Shown: positions 10,106-48,354, numbered from the stretch's first letter. The stretch is DNA of 64,000 nucleotides from the human T2T-CHM13v2.0 reference genome, Homo sapiens (GCF_009914755.1 NC_060941.1), one strand, 5' to 3'. A program made the numbers and translations. Notes: generated from the sequence alone by a model not told the origin.

Positions 10106-10880
10106 CTACCTCCTCTTTAAGGCCAGTAACTCTTAAATTTGCTCTTTTGAGGCTGTTTTCTAGATCTTGTAAGCATGCTTCATTCTTTATTCTTGTCTCC
10201 TCTGTGTATTTTCATATAGGCTGCCTTCAAGCTTGCTAATTCTTCTGCTTCATCAATTTTGCTTTTAAGAGACTCTTGATGCATATTTCAGTATGTCAGC
10301 TGCATTTTTCGTCTCCAGAATTTCTCTCTGGTTCTTTGTAATTGTTTCAATCTCTTCGTTAAATTTATCTGATAGGATTCCGAATTCCTTCTCCACATTA
10401 TCATGGATTTCCTTGAGCTTCCTCAAAACAGCTATTTTGACTCCTCGGTCTGAGAGGTCACATATCGCTGTCTCTCCAGGATTGATCACTGGTGCCTTCT
10501 TTAATTCCTTCGGTGGGTCATGTTTTTCTGGATGGTCTTGATGCTTATGGATGTTCATTAGTGCCTGGGCATTGAAGAGTTAGGTATTTTTGTAGTCTTT
10601 GTAGTCTGGGCTTGTTTGTACCCACCCTTCTGGGGAAGGCTTTCCAAGTATTTGAAGGCACTTGGGTGTTGTTATCTTAAGTCTTTGGTCACTGCAGCTA
10701 TATCTGCTTTAGGGGACACTCCAAGCCCAATAACGCTGTGGCTCTTGTACACTCATAGCGGTACCACCTTGGTGGTCTTGCATAAGATCCTGGAGAATTC
10801 CCTGGGTTATCAAACAGACTCTTGTTCTCTTCTTCTCTTCCCTTACTTTCCTCTAAACAAACAGAGTCAGTCTCTCTCTC

Positions 10881-10884
<4 letters not shown>

Positions 10885-10912
<28 letters not shown>
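10885..10912. repeat. (TG)n microsatellite
   Basis: About 14 TG units. Confidence 0.9.
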
Positions 10913-10913
<1 letters not shown>

Positions 10914-13029
10914 TGAGCTGCCTGGAGCTGGGGGAGGGGCGACACAAGCAGCCCTGTGGACACCAGCACTGGGAGTGCACTGGGTCTTGCCCAAGGCCTG
11001 CAGTACTGCTGCCTGACTACCACCTATGTTCACTCAAGGCCCAAAGGCTCTACAGTCAGCAGGTAGCAAACCCAGCCAGGCTTGCGTCCTTTCGTTCAGG
11101 CAGTGAGTTCTCCGTGGGTCCAGAGATGCCATTCAGGAGCCAGAGCCTAGAGTTGGGTACATCAGAGATCTACCTAGTGCTCTATTCTGCTGCGGCTAAG
11201 CATTAAGCTGGCACCCAAGCTGTAAGACAAAGTCCTTCCCGCTCTTCCGTCCTCTTTTCTCAAGCAGAGGAGTCTTTTCCCATGGCCGCCATCGCCCCAG
11301 GCCCATGGTGAGTGCTGCCTGGCTACCACTGATGTTCACTCAAGGCCCAAGGGCTCTTCATTCAGCTCATGGTGAATGCTGCCAGTTCTGAGTCTCTCCC
11401 TTAAGGCCTTGGGGCTCCCCTCTAACCCAGGGCAGGTCCAGGAAAGTTTTCCAGGAGCCAAGGCCTGGAATCTGGGACCCCAGGAGCCTACTTAGTGCCC
11501 TACCCCACTGTGTCAAGCTGGTACCCAAGTTGCAACACAGAGTCCCCTTTATTCTTACCTCTTCTTTCCTCAAGCAGAAGGGGTCTCTCTCCATAGCCAC
11601 CACAGTTGGTAATGTGCTGGGTCACCCCTGAAGCCAGCATGTCTCCAAGTCTCACCCAAGGCCCACAGCAAGTACTGCCTGGCTATCCCTCCTGGTTGTT
11701 CAGGGGCCAAGGGCTCTTTAGTCAGCAGGTGATGAGTTCTGCCAAGACTGGGTCCTTCCTTTTAAGACAGCAGATTTCCTTCTGGCCCAGGGTTTGTTTA
11801 GGAGTGTTGTCTGTGAGGTAGGGCCTGAAATGGGGGCCTCAGGACTCTGCCTGGTGCCCTCTCCTACTGTGGCTAAGCTGGTAGTTACAAGACAAGGTCC
11901 TCTTTACTCTCTCCACTCTTGTATTTGAACAGAGGGAAGGCATCTCTGTTGGAGCTACAAGCTGAGCTGAGCTGCCTGGGTTTGGGAGAGGGGTGATGTA
12001 AGCATTCCCTTGGTTGCCCTGGCTGTCTCACTAGGTCCACCCCAAGTCCACTGGCTCTGAGCCCAGCACAGCACCAGGACTTACCCAGAAACTGCAGTCC
12101 TTGTGGGCCTAGACTGCCTTTCAAGTTTATTTAGGACCTCAGGGCACTTTAGCTCTTGGTGGTGGGGCTTGCTGGAACTCAGGTTTCAACAGCTGGGATG
12201 GGTGATTTACCTCTGGCTAGGTCTGTTCTAAGTTCTCCATCCTTGAGCACCAGCTGAGCTCTGCCCTGTGTTGCTTTCTGCTATGACAGGGCAGCATTTA
12301 GTCCTAATGCAAAGTCCCATAATCACTGTGCTGTCCGTCCCCCAAATGCAGATTTTCTTTGCACACCACGGGGCCACTGCCAGGAGGTGAAGGAAGGGTG
12401 GTATAGGTAAGTCAAGACAGTTTTTCCTACCCGCTTCAGTGCCTCTTCCTTAATATGATGTTAAGACCAGGTATTGTGATCACTTACCTGATTTTCAGTT
12501 CTTATGAAGGTGCTTTTTTGTATGGATGGTTGTTCAAGTTGGTGTTCCAATAAGGGGGACGATCCCTGGAGGCCTCCATTCAGCCATCTTGCTCCACCTC
12601 CAGTTCTCAAGCTAGTTCTTTGAAAATCAACTTGGGAAAAGTTTTATACACAGGAACACTTGAATAATTGAACACAAATGTTCATTGTAGTTCAGAATTA
12701 GTAGAATATTCAACAGGTTACCATTGGCATGTGGGAAGCAAGAGAGCACTGTGGCTAGAAGGTATTGTTTTAGAGGGAAACCTGAAATGGACTGCAGTGT
12801 ACCTGCTGCTATGCTGACTCAAAAAAAAAATTTCACAAAGTAGGCAATTGTCAGGGTTTCTAGCAGTCTCTTTGAGCCTTGTTAAAGAAATTGTTAATCT
12901 CATTCATACCTACCAACTCCTAGACCTCCATATCTTAAGATTTGGATTACTGTTGTAGCTTAACTGTTCTCCCTGCATATAATCCCCATATTTAGGCTGT
13001 CTCTTCAATTAGCCACATATTGCAAGTTC

Positions 13030-30600: not shown

Positions 30601-30795
30601 GGCCAGACATGGTGGCTAATACCTATAACCCCAACATTTTGAGAGGCCAAGGTGAGAGAATTGCTGGAGGCCAGGAGTTCAAGACCAGCCTGGGCAACAT
30701 AGTGAGACCTTGTCTTTATTAGATAGATAGATAGGTAGGTAGGTAGGTAGGTAGGTAGGTAGATAGATAGGTAGGTAGGTAGGTAGGTAGGTAGG

Positions 30796-30830
<35 letters not shown>

Positions 30831-31210
30831 GATAAGATAAGATAGATAAGATAGATAGATTGGGCACAGTGGCTCATGCCTGTAATCCCAGCATTTTGGG
30901 AGGCCAAGGCAGGAGGATTGCTTGAGCCCAGGAGTGTGAGACCACCCTGGGCAACATAGCAGGACTCCATCTCTACAAATAATAAAATATTAACCAGGTG
31001 TGATGGTACGCACCTGTGGTCCCAGCTACCTGGGAGGCTGAGGTGGGAGGATTGCTTGAGGATGCAGTGAACTGTGATTGCACCAGTGCATTTCCAGCCT
31101 AGGTGACAGAATGAGACCTTGTCTATAAATAAAGAAATAAGTAAAAATATAAATAAGTAAAAAGAAATATAAGTAAATATAAATATAAATAAATATAAAT
31201 ATAAAAATGA
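30601..31210 (+). mobile_element. Alu left monomer (30601-30720) plus AluJ-like dimer (30861-31130) with A-rich tail
   Basis: Alu consensus blocks either side of a compound microsatellite. Confidence 0.85.
30720..30860. repeat. Compound (TAGA)n/(TAGG)n/(TAAGA)n microsatellite
   Basis: Directly visible. Confidence 0.95.
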
Positions 31211-31805
31211 ATGAATCAAAACAGTTTTTAAATTTGACATCACTGAGGACATCCTAGCCATTTTTCTAGAAAAATATTTTTATTATTCCTTTTTTCTAAG
31301 ATCCTACCTTCCCTTACAAAGCAATCTTTTGTGCTTTTGAAGATTAAGTAATCCAATATATATAATATACTTAGCATAGTATCTGGTACTTGTAAAGTAA
31401 TTAATAAATGTTGGATCTTATTTTTGTTCTAAATTCCCACTGATGCTCTTGGAGACCCATTTTCTTTTTTTAAAAAAAAATGAAGGTAGCTTTATAATAT
31501 TCTCAGTTATTTAAAAAATTATTAAATTACTTGATATAGAAATCTAAAGAAAGTTAAAAAAATTAAAAATTGTTTATCCTCCCTCTCAGAATACTTCACT
31601 TAACGTTTGGTGAATAGTCTCCCAGTCATTTATCTATGCACATGTACATTTGTTTCTCCTATCAAATGATATCTAGGTTGTTTCCATTAATATTTTTAAA
31701 ATTCTGACCTGGTACCAGCAGCATGATGGGCTGAGCTAATGCAATCTCTTCCCAAGACATAAGGCTCATAGAAATACTAGGTGTAAAAGAAAATATGTGT
31801 ACTTA

Positions 31806-39497: not shown

Positions 39498-39729
39498 TTA
39501 TCCCACACCCCCATCCTCTATCCCCTATCCCCTATCCTTCATCTCTCTGTCACTGTTGCTCACTCGCTCTCTCACTCTCATGTGTGTGCTCTCTCTCACA
39601 TACACCACACACACACACACACCCCACCTACATAATTTCTTCTCTTACACCTTTAATATAAATATCTGAGTTTTGGTTCAGTTTTGCAAACATTTAAAAG
39701 GCAAACATGGTATTTTGCTTGTTTCAGCA

Positions 39730-39735
39730 TTTAAT
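39730..39735 (-). terminator. Candidate poly(A) signal ATTAAA of the disabled nested gene
   Basis: About 200 nt after the TGA, followed by TGTTTGCCTTTT GU/U-rich element about 22 nt downstream. Confidence 0.55.
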
Positions 39736-39932
39736 AAGGTAGTGCATACTTCTTTCATATGGAAGGAAAACATCATATTAAGTTAATATTTAAACGTACA
39801 CAATTATAATTTGCAAAAAAAAATCAAGATGATAATTTCTTAAATAGTAAATTGAAATAAATGATATTTTCCTAGCATGCTTGTCATTCAGCAATAATAA
39901 GAAACTGAGATAAGAATGCAGGCAGTTGAAGT

Positions 39933-40459
39933 TCACTTCAGCCTGAGTGCAAGTATACACAAAACAGCAAAAATATTACATAGAAAATAAATGTTGTCCA
40001 TTGGATTGAGTATGGTGCTACCATTTGTCACAGTGTTCATATTCATAGTTGTGGCTATCTTTGGGGTCACTGCTGTATTCAGACTTGTCTTGGAATTTGG
40101 AGTCATCTAGGGATTTGAGGTCATTTTGAGATTTGGGCTTGTCCCAGGATTGGTGCTACCATTTGTCACAGTATTCATATTCATAGTTGTGGCTCTTTGG
40201 GGTCACTGCTCTATTCAGACTTGTCTTGGAATTTGGAGTCATCTTGGGACTCGAGGTCATTTTGAGATCTGGGCTTATCCCAGGATTGGGGTTCATTCTG
40301 GGATTGGTGCTCTTCCTGGGATTAGGTCTGGTCCCGGGATTCAGGCTTGACGCAGGATTGGATACTGCCATAGAATTTGAGGTTGTTGATGTTGAAGTTT
40401 GTCCCCGGAATGTTAACAAACATGAAGAGCAGGCCAATCGGTGATAGCTTGAACATCAT
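39933..40459 (-). pseudogene. Disabled single-coding-exon gene for a small signal-peptide, mucin-like, putatively GPI-anchored protein (175 aa after repair)
   Basis: ATG at 40459 six nt after a CAG acceptor; MMFKLSPIGLLFMFVNIPG leader, xNPxxx repeats, NGST + IYFLCNIFAVLCILAL tail, TGA at 39935-39933; one +1 frameshift, one 2-nt deletion, one TAG. Confidence 0.72.
40014..40287. repeat. Tandem duplication, 138 bp (40014-40151) + 136 bp (40152-40287)
   Basis: Two nearly identical copies starting ggtgctaccatttgtcacagt and ending cccaggatt. Confidence 0.92.
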
Positions 40460-41276
40460 CCTCCTCTGTTTCACAATAATTATATAATTTTAATTGAACA
40501 CTTGGATCACAAATAGGCAAGCATATATCCTTAATTGTGTTTATCAGTACATTTGTGTTATGTAAATGTTTGCTTTTTCACTATTAGTGAACAAATTAAA
40601 AGCTTCCCTTTCTTTGTTGTCAACATCTGCTGACAGAAGACCTATTTTCTATTGAGGGCTACCAACTGAAGGCAAAAACAATCCCAAGACTGAAAAAGAG
40701 CTTAATTGGCATTTTTCTATTTAAAAAAGGAAAAAAATAAAACTCTAGACATTCAATGCAATAAATATGGGGGCTTGAGATCAGTATAGAGTAGGGTAGG
40801 GGCAAAGACTGAGAGGCAATTTGGGACAGTAGAGCAACAAAAGAAATAATGAAATAAATATTGGTATTTTCTTGATTTCTCATGACCTTTATTCCAACAA
40901 TTTAAGGTTTTAGTTTAGGTCACAAATTAGGATATTACTTCTAAATATTTACCCAAAGACTAAAGAGGTTAAACCAAAGCATTTCCCCAGTGCTGGGATG
41001 AGGTTTTCTTCATTAACAACAACAACAACAACAATAACAAACTAGAGAAGTTCATAGTTTTAAGATTTAGAAATGAACAAAACCAACTCCTTCATTTTGC
41101 AAATGGGCTCAGACAAGGGGCATAACTTACCTGAGGGTGCATATCTAAAAATGACCCAAGCTAGAACTTAAGTCTGTGACTTAAAGCCCAAATTTTAACT
41201 GTAGAACTCTAACATATATATTAAAAGTTACATTTGGCTCTAATACGTAATTGAGAACATTTCAAATTAATGTTAC

Positions 41277-41338
41277 CTTTTGATATTTTTCTTTGAAGAG
41301 TAAGAATTCAGTCTTTCTCCAGCGTCTATGGGGAATCT
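41277..41338 (-). other. Candidate 62-nt non-coding first exon of the disabled nested gene
   Basis: Runs from the Inr to an AAG|GTAACA donor; contains no ATG. Confidence 0.42.
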
Positions 41339-41385
41339 GATTTCTCACTCACTGCATGCTATTTAAATATAATTAGTGAGGAAGT
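41334..41385 (-). promoter_or_regulatory. Candidate TATA + Inr core promoter with adjacent ETS site
   Basis: TATTTAAATA 41369-41360; Inr TCAGATT (YYANWYY) with A+1 at 41338, 31 nt downstream; GAGGAAGT 41378-41385. Confidence 0.5.
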
Positions 41386-42879
41386 CATGTGTTCTAAACT
41401 TGACCTGCCATTTGCTCTTTGGAAGTATCCAACTGAGTGTTTCCAGACAACTACATATAAACAGATAGACTTTGGCAGAGATTAAAGAATTCAAATAAAG
41501 TTCTAAAATCTGCTTGCTAATTTAAAGAATCCAGTGAATAGCATTTGTTATTCCTCTTACCATGTATACATTAATGAATTGCTTCACTGGATTGACTCTA
41601 ACTAGATGAATTTACTATTTTGCCTGCTGTGATTATTATGATTTTAAACCAAGTAAGTGTATTAAAGGTGTCTGCGTTTTCCTTAGAACATCTGTACATA
41701 TGTTTATAGGGCAGTTTCTACCCATGGTTATTTTGAAGTTTAAAAAATAATTCAGTAATACAACATTTCAGGTATTTAATTTTTGGTAAATAAAGTAACC
41801 TTAGAAAAGAAGTTAAACTTCATTAATATGAAACTTAAGAAAAGGATTACATATGAAAGTGATACTTTTTCATACTGAGTTTACAAACTTTTGTGTGTTT
41901 GTGTATGGTTTTTTAATGTATTAAACCAGTCACCTTGAAGTGCATAAAGTAAATTTTTTGAAGGAATTTTGTCTTTTGGTCAGCCGTTTTCCATGATAAC
42001 TAGCATATAGGGAAATTGGGTTGTATTCTGCTAATGTTTTCATCATATTGGCCAGCACACTTTAAAAATTGCAGGACTGTGAACAATGGTGTTGACATAC
42101 AAGGAAATTGCAACATAAATGGCAGAAGTACAAGCCAGTACATGTTCCTCACTTGTTTTACTGTGCTGTGAAGATCATTTTTCCCCTGAATGAATAAACC
42201 ATGAATAGAACCATGCTTGGTAAATCTTATTTATATGGTACATATAATAACTTCACTTAACTGGAGGTTAATGTGGTCAGATCTAAGAAGTAAACAAACA
42301 AAAAAAAACTACTTGGCAACCAGAGTAGATATTATGAATCGGAGTACTGCAGTAATTTACAGGAGTTTGTCATTGTCCTCTCTCTGCTCACTTGCTCATT
42401 CTGTGGATTTCTTTGGGGGGTATATAGTTGGTAATAGTAATAGTAATAGTAATAGTAATGTTTCGAACTTGAGCAAACTGTGACTTATTCTATTTTTCTA
42501 ATCTTGACCTTTTGAGTACTACACTTACACAACTCTTTATTGATGCTTCAAACACCTCAGTCTCAACTTGTTTAAAATTCAGAAGTTAGTGTTTTCTCCT
42601 TCCTATTTTTGTATCTAGATATATTCTTCTCATAATCTCTTGGTTAATTGTATCATCACCTAGCCAAATGTTTCTCCAACACTGGATTTCTCATTATCTT
42701 CTCTTTCTTATTTATCTTAAGCTCTCCAGGCCTCTTCATGATGATTAAGTAAAATTTAAATTCTATTTAGTACTCAAATGTTCCCAAACAAACAATAGTC
42801 AATTTGCCATTATTCAGGTCTTCAAATACCCACCAACTTTGTATCTTTGTGCAGCCTCCCCAACTTGCCCAAAGTGTAA

Positions 42880-43336
42880 TAATAGCCCCCTCTTATCCTA
42901 AGTTTCACTTTCCATAGTTTCAGTTACCCATGGTCCACCATGGTCTGAAAATACTCAATGGAAAATTCCAGAAATAAACATAAGTTGGATGTATCATGAG
43001 GTTAATAGTAGCCTAGCACTGTGTCACAGTGCTGCATTAGTCAACCCACTTCATCTTATCACATAGGCATTGTGTCATATCACATCATCACAAGAAGGGC
43101 GAGTATAGTACAATAAGATATTTTGAGAGAGATGCCATGTGCATGTGCTTTTATTGTAGTATATTGCTATAACTTCTATTTTATTATTGTTTTTAATCTC
43201 TTACTGTGCCTAATTTATAATTAAACTTTATCACAGGTATTTCTGTATAGGAGAAAAACACAGCATATATTGGGTTCAATACTGTGATTCTGTGGTTTCA
43301 GGTATCCCTGAGGGGTCTTGGAACATATCCCCCACA
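42880..43336. mobile_element. DNA transposon relic, MER44-like (TcMar-Tigger)
   Basis: Degenerate terminal inverted repeats tagccccctcttatcc / gttaagggggtactactgta. Confidence 0.6.
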
Positions 43337-43608
43337 GTTAAGGGGGTACTACTGTACTTTCCTCATTCAAAATTGTGTTGTTTCTTCAAGCTCCACTCAT
43401 GTCAGCACCTTTTATACGATCCTTCCCTAATTCTTCACGTCAGAATCAGTCATTTTAGTACTTTATACTTTGATCAGAGTCTCATTTTCACTAAAGAAAC
43501 TAAATCTTCCACCATATTCTGGCTTTTTTTGTGGTAAGATACCACCTCTTATTCCTTCTATTCCCTCTAGCTTCTAATATAGTGAGTGTTTATAAAGAAT
43601 AGGACACA

Positions 43609-44000
<392 letters not shown>

Positions 44001-44530
44001 CTAAAGTAAGAGTTATTTGGTTATTTGCAGTTTTCCCTTCACATTAGCATAAATTTGGAAGGCACAGGCTTGAGTTTAACTTTCATCTCTACTTTCCTGG
44101 CTGCTGTTTTGAGAAGATTTCTTCATTTGTACAATGTGGATCATAATGCACATTCATAATCCCTTGTCTGTAATCTGAAACCCCAAATCCTCCAAAAACC
44201 TTAAGTTTTATCAAAAAATAAAAAAGTTTGACACCAAAATTTATTTGGTGCAAATGCCTTATCTGCATAGATGGGAGGTTTTTAGCTATCTTTGTTTCAC
44301 TTAATGTGGATATTAATGTTGCGCTGCAGAAATATTGATGAGATTGATTTTGGGGTGCTGTTCCATTTTCTACTGGAGTGTTACATAATACATGATAAGA
44401 ATAGTACTTAGCATATTCATGTTTCTCTTCTTCCTTCTGGGCACAGCACCATACCACTCTTAGCATTCTGATAGTTAGGTGGTACCATCTGACTGAGTTC
44501 TGGCCAGTAAAATGTCAGTTCCAATGATGT

Positions 44531-44960
44531 ACAATCGACCCTTGAACAACACTGGGGTTAGGGGCACTGAATCTCCACGCAATGGAAAATCTACGTATAA
44601 CTTTTGCCTCCCCAAAAACTAAACTACTAATAGACTGTTGATCGGAAGCCTTTTGATAACATAAACAGATTAACATGTTTTGTAAGTTAAATGTTGTATA
44701 TGCTATATTCTTAGAGTGAAATAAGCTCCAGAAAAGAAATTGTTACCCAGAAAATCATGAGGAAGAGAAAATATATTTACTGTTCTCTGAGTGGAAGTGG
44801 ATTATCACGAAGGTCTTCATCCTCTTTATCTTCATGTTGAGTAGGTGGAGGAGAAAGAAGAGGGATTGGTCTTACTGTCCCCGGGCTGGCAGAGGTGGAA
44901 GTAAACCTCTGTATAAGTGGATCAGCATGGTTCAAAGCCATGTTGTTTAAGGGTCAACTG
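44531..44960. mobile_element. DNA transposon relic, Tigger2a/MER28-like, inside an MLT-like LTR fragment
   Basis: TIRs caatcgacccttgaacaac / gttgtttaagggtcaactg with TA flanks. Confidence 0.75.
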
Positions 44961-46175
44961 TATATGATTTTTAAGCCTGATGTCTAACTTCTCACCAATC
45001 TTCCATTCTTGCTTTCTTCTATCAACGCCTACTAGAAACAGACGGTTCAGTGGAGGGGGTCTCCAAGACGCCAGAAGATGGTAAAACCATTAGAAAGCAT
45101 GATTTAAGAGAAATTAACTTTTGTTGTCTTAGCCAGTGATATTTTGGGATTATTTGTGACAGAAATTAGTTCGTGCTGACTAACATAACTACATGCTGGA
45201 CATCTTGCCTTTGCCTCTTCAAATCCACTCTGTTCTTTACCCTGCTGTGTACCCTAAGAGGCTGACCTGTGTAGAGGGTATCATTGGGCTCCCCTCCTTT
45301 CTGGCTTTCAGCTGGCCCATAGGGAATACAAGCGGAAGATTAGGGAGAAGAAAGAGAGTAAGGTTAGGAGGTATATATTTTTGGCTCCGTTTCTGCAGGG
45401 TCCCAGTGGGCTGGCTACATCCATCCATGCAGTATGGTTTTTGTTGGGTGACCCTCTCCACACAACCTACTCTGTGTCTGCTTTCTGCTAACTGCTTCCT
45501 GCACTCACTACTTCAGGTGTAGTATCACACTGTTTCTTAAGAGTTTCCTTAAAACCTGCCTTCTCCTTTATACATAATCTCTAATATCTCAGTTTGAATT
45601 TGCCACCTGTTTCCTGCTAGAACCTTAATTGCTACAAGCTGTATGTACACTGTATCATCTTCCTAAAATCACCAGGCATGGTGGGATGTGAGCTATAGTC
45701 CCAGCAACTCAGGAGGCTGATGTAGGAGGATTGCTTGAGCCCAGAAATTCAAGGCTACAGTGAGCTATGGATACCCTAACCTGAGCAACAGAGCAAGACC
45801 TTGTCTCTAAAAAACAAAAATTAAGTTAAAAAATTGTGTCTTTCTTTATATACTTACATTACTTTCCGTTGATCTGTTTTTGAAATGTTTCCAGAACTGT
45901 CTTCCCTCACGTATTGATTCTTCCAAAATTCTTAAGAAAATGGAAAAAAGTAATTTCTGAAAATGATGAGAATGATCATAAATTTCATATAGCACTTTCT
46001 TGAGAATTTCAAATTGCAGTTTTAATATTTTACTTTAGAAACAGGTCCAGTTTTCCCTTCTGTAATTTTTTTCTTTGGTCTTTTTGGATTTTTTGGGTTT
46101 TTGTTTTTTTTTTTTCTTGAAAAGAACACAGAGATCTTTTCTTGAGTGATATTTGCACAGACATTGCCTTGGTAA

Positions 46176-46935
<760 letters not shown>

Positions 46936-46989
46936 ATTTTGTTTTGAAATGAATTTATGTATGTTTGGTTATTTCTGAAAGCAGTTCAG

Positions 46990-47031
46990 GCCTACAGCCA
47001 TACCACCCTGAATGCACCTGATGTTGTCTGA
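46990..47031 (+). pseudogene. 5S rRNA 5' fragment (nt 1-42), tailless retrocopy with TSD
   Basis: gcctacagccataccaccctgaatgcacctgatgttgtctga vs 5S GTCTACGGCCATACCACCCTGAACGCGCCCGATCTCGTCTGA (35/42); flanked by tctgaaagca(g/a)ttcag repeats. Confidence 0.85.
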
Positions 47032-47807
47032 AAGCAATTCAGGTTTTCAGGATTAAAATTTTTATGCTACTAGGTTTGTAACCTATATTTAAAAGTAGAA
47101 CATTTAAAACATTTTAGTAGTATATAGCACTGAAAAGTGGCTTTTTAGCGTAGACAGTTGTTTTTCAAGAAACTATTTTGTAATCCTAGCTACTTGGGAG
47201 CCTGAGGTGGGAGGATCGCTTGAGCTCAGAATCCAGTCTGGGCAACAAAGGAGAATTCCAGCCTCTTTAAAAAAAAAAAAAAAAGGAAGAAACTATTTGG
47301 GAGTTTTGTGAACAATGGATATGCAAAAAGACAGGCCATTGTTATGAGAGGCCTAATTGTGAGTACCTTCTAGAATTGTATATAAGCATGATTCTCTTCA
47401 ATAGTAAAATCTCAGCCTCTTCATTTTAGAAATCTAATATAGGAAAAAGAACACATTTCTCCATAGTTGTAAAACATAGGTTCTCAGGGTGAATGCCCAT
47501 CTTTGAGCAAGTTTGTCTTCCTAATGGTATAATACTGTAAGTCTGTTATCTAATTTTGGCTTGTTGTCACTTATTTTTCATAATCAAAGAAAAATGATTT
47601 AATTTTAAAAAGATGCTCTCCTTTCTGTTTTCTTCTCTTGGATGATAGTATCCCTATCTGTCTGAGTTTATAGAATCTTAATTTTTACCTGCTCTTACCA
47701 CATACATCTGATTAGTCATTAAGTCTTACTGATTCTGCTTCAGAAATTTTGTTTTATGCTTCACTCTCATGCTACCAACTTATTTGGTAGCTTCAGCAGT
47801 TGTCTAA

Positions 47808-48354
<547 letters not shown>

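What the first reader, a model, noticed from the sequence alone, without database searches (positions are those of the whole stretch)
39933..40468. Candidate additional nested antisense gene in NF1 intron 36: a disabled GPI-anchored mucin-like protein
SEEN: the - strand reads ...gtgaaaCAG|AGGAGG ATG ATG TTC (ATG at 40459, A at -3). Three repairs are needed: delete one G in the GGGG run at 40406-40403, restore a TA lost at about 40194, and revert TAG at 40109-40107 to AAG. The result is one 175-aa ORF ending at TGA 39935-39933: MMFKLSPIGLLFMFVNIPG/QTSTSTTSNSMAVSNPASSLNPGTRPNPRKSTNPRMNPNPGISPDLKMTSSPKMTPNSKTSLNRAVTPK[I]ATTMNMNTVTNGSTNPGTSPNLKMTSNP[K]MTPNSKTSLNTAVTPKIATTMNMNTVTNGSTILNPMDNIYFLCNIFAVLCILALRLK*. 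Two of the three repairs are dictated by the sister copy of an internal duplication; the position of the +1 repair is my choice. KNOWN: signal peptide + Ser/Thr/Pro-rich stalk + small-residue omega site (NGS) + spacer + terminal hydrophobic tail is the layout of GPI-anchored mucin-type proteins such as CD24 and CD52. OMG, EVI2A and EVI2B lie in this intron on this strand, each with one coding exon for a glycosylated surface protein. INFERENCE: this is a fourth member of the cluster that was lost in the human lineage (unitary pseudogene). The ORF track shows only its middle third. Caveats: the acceptor lacks a good polypyrimidine tract, and I cannot confirm it is unannotated.
Basis: partly seen in the sequence, partly recalled or inferred. 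Interest (0 to 1): 0.92.

Follow-up and report, generated by a model that had tools for sequence, protein, structure and literature searches.

The report
Dead mucin-like gene inside NF1 intron
The last exon of the human non-coding RNA LOC101927057, inside the large NF1 intron, is the broken remnant of a small surface-mucin-like protein gene whose intact 119-160-residue versions I found in other (unnamed, presumably mammalian) species.

Summary
On the minus strand an ATG-ATG lies 6 nt after an annotated splice acceptor (exon start 40465 of LOC101927057). It opens a hydrophobic leader, followed by a Ser/Thr/Pro/Asn-rich stretch with a 136/138-nt tandem duplication and a hydrophobic tail.

A search with the 57-aa C-terminal piece found small proteins, and a profile search extended them to 17 unnamed proteins, 14 with an open frame from leader to tail. 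They share the layout: MMFKLS-type leader, Cys-free 34-43% Ser/Thr middle, and an SGG-TTLNP-DNIHFLFYVIFLLFCV tail.

Their segments map onto the human DNA in frame order A, B, C, A. The family profile hits only this locus in T2T-CHM13 (E 1e-21), so this is a unitary pseudogene.

Corrections:
- There are four breaks, not three.
- The +1 shift lies somewhere in 40406-40398.
- The family shows no sequence relation to EVI2A, EVI2B or OMG.

Not tested: GPI anchoring (7 of 14 intact forms carry a long C-terminal extension), synteny, donor species, and the date of loss.

The parts
41275..41277 (-). End of the upstream lncRNA exon and the splice donor (AAG|GT; the exon ends at 41277 and the intron starts with GT at 41276-41275)
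   Evidence: together with the RefSeq exon boundary 41277 given with the finding
40466..40467 (-). Splice acceptor AG; the terminal exon starts at 40465
   Evidence: The RefSeq exon 39713-40465 of LOC101927057 starts exactly here
40400..40459 (-). Ancestral start (ATG ATG) and hydrophobic leader in frame A (MMFKLSPIGLLFMFVNIPGT)
   Evidence: Orthologue residues 1-15/22 align here at 60-67% identity (P0003, P0015, P0016)
40398..40406 (-). Lesion 1: frame change A to B (one extra base, or an equivalent change) somewhere within the GGGG-ACAAA stretch
   Evidence: Leader matches end at about 40400-40397 in frame A, and middle matches run in frame B from about 40404
40195..40397 (-). Ser/Thr/Pro/Asn-rich middle in frame B, part of the 93-aa ORF 40156-40437
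   Evidence: E 4.3e-7; E 1.5e-7
40154..40289 (-). Tandem duplication, copy 1 (136 nt). Boundaries are arbitrary by rotation of the repeat
40016..40153 (-). Tandem duplication, copy 2 (138 nt, or 46 codons)
   Evidence: The orthologues carry this unit only once
40194..40195 (-). Lesion 2: 2 nt missing from copy 1 relative to copy 2 (frame B to C)
   Evidence: Copy 2 and the orthologues read ..PKIATTMN..
40107..40109 (-). Lesion 3: TAG stop in copy 2, where copy 1 has AAG and the closest orthologue has Lys
   Evidence: P0003 ..SSKMTP..
39983..39992 (-). Human has 4 nt where the orthologues have 9 nt (F-L-x)
   Evidence..LNPMDNIYF is in frame C, and FYVIFLLFCVY in frame A matches the orthologue tails at 75-77% identity
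39938..39982 (-). Ancestral hydrophobic tail in frame A (YVIFLLFCVYLHSG) and its stop TGA 39940-39938. This is the same stop position as in P0003 and P0005
   Evidence: ORF 39938-40024; E 0.014
39933..39981 (-). It is a frameshifted reading of the same DNA and not the ancestral tail
   Evidence: P0012 carries an independent shift into the same alternative frame
39713..39937 (-). 3' UTR with ATTAAA at 39735-39730 and the exon end at 39713. It is homologous to the C-terminal extension of the long orthologues
   Evidence: P0013 residues 117-194 align to 39991-39758, P0014 residues 107-159 to 39991-39830

Best explanation
Window 39713-40465 (minus strand) is the single coding exon of a lost protein-coding gene. 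In other species that gene encodes a protein of about 120-160 residues in three parts: a cleavable-looking N-terminal signal sequence, a disordered Cys-free stalk that is 34-43% Ser/Thr, and a C-terminal hydrophobic segment preceded by small residues (SGG, NGS or SGS). That layout suggests a small sialomucin-like cell-surface protein. It would be GPI-anchored in the short forms and possibly membrane-spanning in the long forms.

In the human lineage the exon first acquired an in-frame 46-codon tandem duplication. It now carries four ORF-breaking lesions: three frame changes and one TAG. The exon is still spliced to an upstream exon and polyadenylated, so it is annotated as the lncRNA LOC101927057. 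From the ancestral ATG only the leader plus 27 out-of-frame residues can be translated.

Shown here: the homology, the frame order, the lesions, the single-copy status and the architecture. Inferred: signal-peptide cleavage, O-glycosylation, the type of membrane anchor, orthology by synteny, and the age of the loss.
For: - Homologues: the 57-aa human piece found P0003 (126 aa), P0005 (139 aa) and P0006 (131 aa) among 1.84 billion representatives. A profile of these three found 17 proteins in all (sequences).
- Shared plan: alignment A2 shows a common layout. Between-group identity is 63% in the leader, 37% in the middle with 27% gaps, and 65% in the tail without gaps.
- Frame order: tblastn of all members on the human exon gives N-terminus in frame A (40459-40397), middle in frame B (40440-40192), later part in frame C (40202-39954) and tail in frame A (39991-39953).
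- Single locus: P0003 and the family profile hit only this locus in the whole T2T genome. The human DNA and ORF pieces are single-copy.
- Structure: AlphaFold predicts only helices 2-19 and 106-125, with the rest below pLDDT 50.
- Terminal segment: in the short forms the hydrophobic segment ends at the C-terminus, as in the GPI-anchored neighbour OMG. EVI2A and EVI2B have 75 and 219 residues after their membrane segment.
- Transcript features: acceptor, donor and ATTAAA fit the RefSeq lncRNA exons. Published expression studies detect the transcript.
- Duplication: the two copies differ by 7 substitutions (5 non-synonymous including the stop, 2 synonymous) and one indel, which is consistent with neutral drift after duplication.
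Against: - The homologues carry no species names, no annotation and no genomic context (sources 'lgn' and 'ena' only). Mammalian origin and location in the Nf1 intron are inferred from colinear similarity that extends into the human intron (P0020) and the 3' UTR (P0013, P0014).
- They are ORF predictions, so intact frames are preferentially recorded.
- The middle region is less conserved than the stretch that is 3' UTR in human (37% against 64% identity). Constraint therefore acts on openness and composition, not on sequence.
- Seven of the 14 intact forms continue 35-70 aa past the hydrophobic tail, which does not fit a canonical GPI signal.
- Three members (P0012, P0018, P0019) are themselves frameshifted, so the gene may be weakly constrained or decaying in several lineages.
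- No signal-peptide or GPI predictor was available.
Confidence: 0.85

Rival explanations
1. Chance ORF. The exon is simply a lncRNA exon, and the leader, stalk and tail reading is produced by choosing repairs freely in A/C-rich DNA.
For: ORFs of 90 aa or more are common in the window (33). T-rich DNA gives hydrophobic residues in any frame: the tail is hydrophobic in both frames A and C. The acceptor has a poor polypyrimidine tract.
Against: Independent intact proteins with the same start, leader, composition and tail exist, and they match only this locus.
Confidence: 0.03
2. Conserved non-coding exon. The locus is a conserved lncRNA in all mammals, and the open frames in the database are accidental, recorded only because ORF callers keep open frames.
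For: The region that is 3' UTR in human is as conserved as the leader and tail. Stop position is labile and three members are frameshifted. No source names any of these proteins.
Against: Fourteen sequences from about 8 divergent groups keep one frame open from the same ATG to the same tail. They do so across a middle with 27% gapped positions, all of them in-frame, and they keep 34-43% Ser/Thr and no Cys. The leader and tail are gap-free.
Confidence: 0.08
3. The human transcript still has a function, either as a regulated lncRNA or through the residual 46-codon ORF (ancestral leader plus 27 new residues, a possible secreted micropeptide).
For: The exon is still spliced and polyadenylated (RefSeq). 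The transcript is strongly up-regulated in alveolar soft-part sarcoma. It is also listed with OMG and airway epithelial genes among those down-regulated in nasopharyngeal carcinoma. The ORF 40322-40474 keeps the start and leader.
Against: Nothing here shows constraint on the human sequence. The two duplicate copies drift at a 5:2 non-synonymous to synonymous ratio. Expression alone is not function.
Confidence: 0.15
4. The ancestral protein is a single-pass or hairpin membrane protein, or a secreted mucin, and is not GPI-anchored.
For: Seven long forms carry 35-70 further residues, including a second hydrophobic segment. P0005 and P0007 are nearly identical but differ in whether the stop is present, so both ends seem tolerated.
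Against: Seven short forms and the human relic end at, or at most two residues (SG) after, a 12-16-residue hydrophobic run. That run lies about 10 residues after a small-residue triplet, the same end layout as GPI-anchored OMG.
Confidence: 0.4

Closest known systems
Unitary pseudogenes that survive as lncRNAs (loss relics; Hezroni et al. 2017, PMC5577775; Mol Biol Evol 2023, PMC10195156)
   Same: A lost protein-coding gene with no functional paralogue. Its exon structure, splicing and polyadenylation persist as an annotated lncRNA, and it lies inside an intron of another gene, as do 28 of the 33 cases in PMC10195156.
   Different: I did not find this locus in the texts and supplements I could search. 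The parent family itself has no name, no Pfam model and no literature.
Small GPI-anchored sialomucin-type surface proteins (CD24 and CD52 type; named from general knowledge)
   Same: Signal peptide, a short disordered Ser/Thr-rich Cys-free stalk, small residues followed by a spacer, and a terminal hydrophobic run.
   Different: There is no sequence homology: no Pfam family of any kind matches the 16 members. The protein is longer (about 100-residue stalk) and basic (K+R about 10%, D+E 2-5%). Half of the intact members have a long C-terminal extension.
OMG, EVI2A and EVI2B, the three known genes nested antisense in the same NF1 intron
   Same: Same intron and same strand, a non-coding upstream exon plus a single coding exon, and a glycosylated surface-protein layout. 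OMG also ends in a terminal hydrophobic GPI-type signal.
   Different: No detectable homology: BLASTP E is 0.1 or higher and hhalign probability is 2.9% and 0.9%. EVI2A and EVI2B have long cytoplasmic tails. OMG was not compared by sequence; from general knowledge it is a leucine-rich-repeat protein.

Membership tests
Unitary (unprocessed, parent-less) pseudogene | Recognisable homology to a protein-coding gene that is intact in other species | tested here: met
   Seventeen proteins were found. E is 1.8e-11 for a single protein and 9.8e-22 for the profile against the whole human genome.
Unitary (unprocessed, parent-less) pseudogene | ORF-disrupting lesions relative to the intact relatives | tested here: met
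   Three frame changes (40406-40398, 40195/40194, 39992-39983) and TAG 40109-40107.
Unitary (unprocessed, parent-less) pseudogene | No functional paralogue in the same genome | tested here: met
   DNA, ORF pieces, P0003 and the family profile hit only this locus in T2T-CHM13.
Unitary (unprocessed, parent-less) pseudogene | Syntenic position of the intact orthologues (same place in the Nf1 intron) | not testable with these tools
   The homologous proteins come without contigs or species. The only available support is colinear similarity into the human intron (P0020) and the 3' UTR (P0013, P0014).
Unitary (unprocessed, parent-less) pseudogene | Not a processed copy: retains the intron and splice site of the parent | tested here: inconclusive
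   The ORF starts 6 nt after an annotated acceptor, and the exon has its own ATTAAA. The exon structure in other species was not seen.
GPI-anchored mucin-type surface protein (architecture class) | N-terminal signal peptide | tested here: inconclusive
   Lys at position 3-4, a hydrophobic core of 10-12 residues, and small residues before a G|T junction. AlphaFold predicts helix 2-19. No SignalP-type predictor was available.
GPI-anchored mucin-type surface protein (architecture class) | Ser/Thr/Pro-rich, unfolded, Cys-free ectodomain | tested here: met
   S+T is 34-43% and Cys is 0 in the 14 members whose stalk my script delimited (the tail pattern did not match P0017 and P0018). pLDDT is below 50 across residues 18-99.
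GPI-anchored mucin-type surface protein (architecture class) | C-terminal GPI signal: small omega residues, a polar spacer, and a hydrophobic run that ends the protein | tested here: inconclusive
   Met by rule of thumb in 7 short forms and in the human frame-A tail, with OMG as positive control and EVI2A/EVI2B as negative controls. Not met in 7 long forms. No GPI predictor or experiment was available.
CD24 / CD52 or any other described protein family (homology) | A significant match to the family model | tested here: not met
   No Pfam-A family matched at E of 0.09 or below for any of the 16 members or the human pieces. There is no PDB relative.
EVI2A / EVI2B paralogue | Detectable sequence or profile similarity | tested here: not met

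The most novel reading that the evidence does not exclude
The large NF1 intron holds a fourth nested antisense gene that is a real, still undescribed mammalian protein-coding gene. It would encode a small basic sialomucin-like surface protein, intact in many mammals. It was lost in the primate lineage leading to humans, and its relic persists as the regulated lncRNA LOC101927057.
Probability: 0.4. Interest if true: 0.65.

Novelty: new member of a known kind. Interest (0 to 1): 0.6.

Why it matters
Reviews of the NF1 locus and of NF1 microdeletions list three genes nested in this intron: OMG, EVI2B and EVI2A. A fourth gene, dead in humans and open in other species, would change the gene content of this locus in comparative and mouse-model work. 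An Nf1-intron deletion or microdeletion model in a species with the intact gene would remove one more protein than in humans.

It also gives LOC101927057 an origin. That transcript recurs in tumour expression lists. Finally, it adds a clean example of a coding gene turning into a lncRNA, and it points to an unnamed small mucin-like protein family that could be studied in species where it is intact.

Tried and rejected
- Repeat family or transposon: rejected. The DNA is single-copy in T2T-CHM13, and the ORF pieces have no other significant match.
- Known domain: none found in Pfam for the human pieces or the 16 homologues, and there is no PDB relative.
- Paralogy with EVI2A or EVI2B: rejected.
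- First word-index protein search with the 99-aa frame-B piece: blank. Relatives only appeared with the exhaustive HMMER search using the 57-aa C-terminal piece. Three of its six hits (P0001, P0002, P0004) are unrelated repetitive proteins and were discarded.
- ESM Atlas look-up of P0008: failed because the sequence is not stored.
- Literature:
  - Peptide strings are not found in any paper.
  - LOC101927057 appears only in expression lists; one listed paper shows no occurrence in its main text.
  - Papers on unitary pseudogenes and lncRNA fossils do not mention the locus in the texts and supplements held. One look-up failed on a term-length rule.
- TFE3/MITF CLEAR motif (TCACGTGA), as an explanation for the sarcoma up-regulation: no match in the window.
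- I did not type or search any repaired or joined version of the human ORF. All searches used unbroken pieces or natural homologues.

Full report
**1. The observation**

I read the minus strand of 39600-40700, the ORF table and a three-frame translation.

- The sequence reads ...gtgaaacag|AGGAGG ATG ATG TTC, with the first ATG at 40459-40457.
- The split after the AG coincides with the start (40465) of the terminal exon of the RefSeq lncRNA LOC101927057.
- That exon ends at 39713, 17 nt after an ATTAAA at 39735-39730.
- The upstream exon ends in AAG|GTAACA at 41277/41276.
- The leader MMFKLSPIGLLFMFVNIPGT is in frame A.
- A 93-aa ORF rich in Ser, Thr, Pro and Asn is in frame B (40156-40437).
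- A 57-aa ORF is in frame C (39933-40106).
- TRF finds a tandem duplication of period 136, 2.0 copies and 93% matches at 40013-40289.
- My alignment of the two copies gives 7 substitutions and one 2-nt gap. Copy 1 lacks 2 nt between 40195 and 40194, and copy 2 has TAG (40109-40107) where copy 1 has AAG.

**2. Is it more than chance?**

ORF length alone is not convincing, because the window has 33 ORFs of 90 aa or more. The region is not a repeat family. The 801-nt stretch is single-copy in T2T-CHM13, and the ORF pieces have no other significant six-frame match in the genome. No Pfam family matches.

**3. The decisive result**

The word-index protein search with the 99-aa frame-B piece was blank. 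An exhaustive HMMER search of 1.84 billion representative proteins with the 57-aa C-terminal piece returned three small proteins: P0003 (126 aa), P0005 (139 aa) and P0006 (131 aa). Their C-termini match the query.

Their sequences begin MFK../MMFKLS.. with a hydrophobic leader, continue with a Ser/Thr-rich middle and end ..NGSTIL..NIHFL.YV.FLLFCV... It also has the size expected for the human gene without its 46-codon duplication.

A profile of the three retrieved 17 proteins of 119-243 aa. All come from the sources 'lgn' or 'ena', none carries a name or a Pfam domain, and each stands for 1-8 member sequences on short contigs.

**4. Mapping onto the human DNA**

I ran tblastn of all members against window 39700-40600. 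The pattern is the same for every member:

| Orthologue part | Human frame | Window coordinates |
|---|---|---|
| Residues 1-15/22 | A | 40459-40397 |
| Middle | B | 40440-40192 |
| Next part | C | 40202-39954 |
| Hydrophobic tail | A | 39991-39953 |

The tail matches at 75-77% identity (FIFYVIFLLFCVY against FLFYVIFLLFCV). For members with a long C-terminus, the frame-A match continues to 39758.

Relative to the intact relatives, the human exon therefore carries four ORF-breaking lesions.

1. A frame change A to B within 40406-40398. The orthologues keep Gly-Thr after the leader, as human frame A does up to codon 40402-40400. This cannot be decided without primate sequences.
2. The 2-nt loss at 40195/40194 in copy 1 of the duplication.
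3. TAG at 40109-40107 in copy 2.
4. A frame change C to A within 39992-39983. Here human has 4 nt between two Tyr codons where the orthologues have 9 nt (Phe-Leu-x).

The ancestral tail is the frame-A reading (YVIFLLFCVYLHSG), with its stop at TGA 39940-39938. P0003 and P0005 stop at the same position.

Lesions 2 and 3 each occur in only one copy, so they postdate the duplication. The duplication is absent from all homologues. The copies differ by 5 non-synonymous changes (including the stop) and 2 synonymous ones, as expected for neutral drift. Assuming about 1e-9 substitutions per site per year, 7 differences in 136 nt puts the duplication at roughly 25 Myr, with a range of 15-35 Myr. This is an inference only.

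**5. Unitary status**

P0003 searched against the whole human genome hits only this locus (E 1.8e-11 and 4.3e-7; the next hit has E 2.7). The 16-sequence family profile does the same, with E 9.8e-22, 1.5e-7, 0.014 for the frame-A tail and 0.41 for the leader. There is no intact human paralogue.

**6. What the family looks like**

Alignment A2 and my region statistics give these between-group values:

| Region | Identity | Gapped positions |
|---|---|---|
| Leader | 63% | none |
| Middle | 37% | 27% |
| Tail | 65% | none |

- The middle is 34-43% Ser+Thr, 4-9% Pro and 4-12% Asn. It is basic (K+R about 10%, D+E 1-8%) and has no Cys in the 14 members where my script delimited it.
- AlphaFold on A2 (P0003) predicts only two helices, residues 2-19 and 106-125. 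Everything between is below pLDDT 50.
- No Pfam family and no PDB sequence matches.
- Comparison with the neighbours EVI2B and EVI2A, taken from the genome, shows no homology by BLASTP or by profile (hhalign probability 2.9% and 0.9%).

'Fourth member of the cluster' is therefore true for position, strand and gene plan, but not for descent.

**7. The membrane anchor**

Seven members end at, or at most two residues (SG) after, the 12-16-residue hydrophobic run: P0003, P0005, P0006, P0008, P0011, P0016 and P0020. That run lies about 10 residues after a small-residue triplet (SGG, SGS, NGS or NDG).

In my simple hydropathy scan these short forms behave like OMG, the GPI-anchored neighbour, whose terminal hydrophobic segment has 0 residues after it. 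They behave unlike EVI2A and EVI2B, which have 75 and 219 residues after the membrane segment. This fits a GPI signal.

Seven other members continue for 35-70 residues (..SGWSGLELS.FLSQFFIICWMTTSTLGKSNLFQ..). This continuation runs into what is 3' UTR in human. P0005 and P0007 are almost identical yet differ in whether the stop is present. The anchor type is therefore uncertain and may differ between lineages. No signal-peptide or GPI predictor was available.

**8. Caveats on 'real gene'**

- The homologues are ORF predictions without species or context, so synteny and taxon are inferred. The inference rests on colinear similarity beyond the ORF. P0020's upstream residues match the human intron just before the acceptor, and the P0013 and P0014 extensions match the human 3' UTR.
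- The middle is less conserved than the extension (37% against 64%). Selection, if present, acts on openness and composition rather than on sequence, as is typical of mucin-like stalks.
- Three members are themselves frameshifted: P0012 in the tail (into the same alternative frame as human frame C), P0019 in the leader and P0018 in the extension. This may reflect recurrent decay, polymorphism or sequencing error.

Against the 'accidental ORF' reading stand several facts. Fourteen sequences from about eight divergent groups keep one frame open from the same ATG to the same tail. All their many indels are in-frame. Leader and tail are gap-free, and the composition is maintained throughout.

**9. 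Present state in humans**

The exon is still part of a spliced, polyadenylated transcript. LOC101927057 (probe 238720_at) is among the most up-regulated transcripts in alveolar soft-part sarcoma (PMC7307565). It is also listed with OMG and airway ciliated and secretory genes among those down-regulated in nasopharyngeal carcinoma (PMC6444505). From the ancestral ATG only 46 codons remain open: the leader plus 27 out-of-frame residues. Whether the RNA or this short ORF does anything is unknown.

**10. Comparison with what is known, and novelty**

The conversion of lost coding genes into lncRNAs is a described phenomenon (PMC5577775; PMC10195156). This locus is a new example of it. It is not mentioned in the texts and supplements I could search. 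The NF1 literature I saw lists only OMG, EVI2B and EVI2A.

The parent family has no name in any source I could reach, and peptide strings occur in no paper. I could not check the gene sets of other mammals, so it may already exist there as an uncharacterised predicted protein. I therefore file the finding as a new member of a known kind.

**11. Verdict**

- GPI anchoring, synteny, the species that keep the gene and the date of loss remain to be tested.
- No step had to be referred.

Noticed in passing
window 39713-47682 (LOC101927057): The relic transcript is strongly up-regulated in alveolar soft-part sarcoma (PMC7307565). It is also listed together with OMG and airway ciliated and secretory genes among genes down-regulated in nasopharyngeal carcinoma (PMC6444505). 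No TCACGTGA (CLEAR/M-box core) occurs anywhere in the window.
   Followed up: partly
proteins P0012, P0018, P0019 (homologues from other species): Other lineages also carry frame-shifted versions. P0012 shifts in the T-rich run before the tail into the same alternative frame as the human frame-C reading. P0019 shifts after the leader, as human does. P0018 shifts in the extension. This suggests recurrent decay or slippage hot spots.
   Followed up: partly
window 39758-39940 (human 3' UTR) against homologues P0007, P0009, P0010, P0013-P0015, P0017: The stop codon position of the family is labile. Stops fall after CVQ/CVH or after ..SG, or are absent, in which case the frame stays open for 35-70 more codons through sequence homologous to the human 3' UTR. 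The extension is about 64% identical among the long forms.
   Followed up: partly
window 40271-40341: A degenerate 18-nt (6-codon) repeat (3.9 copies, 71% matches) lies inside the frame-B coding relic. It corresponds to the ..NP..NP.. hexapeptide pattern and hints at how the stalk expands and contracts.
   Followed up: no
window 39602-39622: A short (AC)n microsatellite lies just downstream of the polyadenylation site of the exon.
   Followed up: no
window 40000-40499: The coding relic stands out from its flanks in composition. GC is 0.43 against 0.33-0.34, with strong strand skew (A/C-rich on the minus strand).
   Followed up: no
window 41277-47682: The annotated upstream exon block of the lncRNA is 6.4 kb of merged exons. 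It holds several 90-125-aa ORFs (43713-43991, 44089-44466, 45193-45522), and I did not examine what they are. There is no GC-rich promoter signature at the 5' end (GC 0.34-0.35 at 47000-48000).
   Followed up: no
window 10616-11206 (+) and 30719-31261 (-): These are the two longest non-annotated ORFs of the window (196 and 180 aa), inside NF1 introns. I did not examine them; they may be repeat-derived.
   Followed up: no
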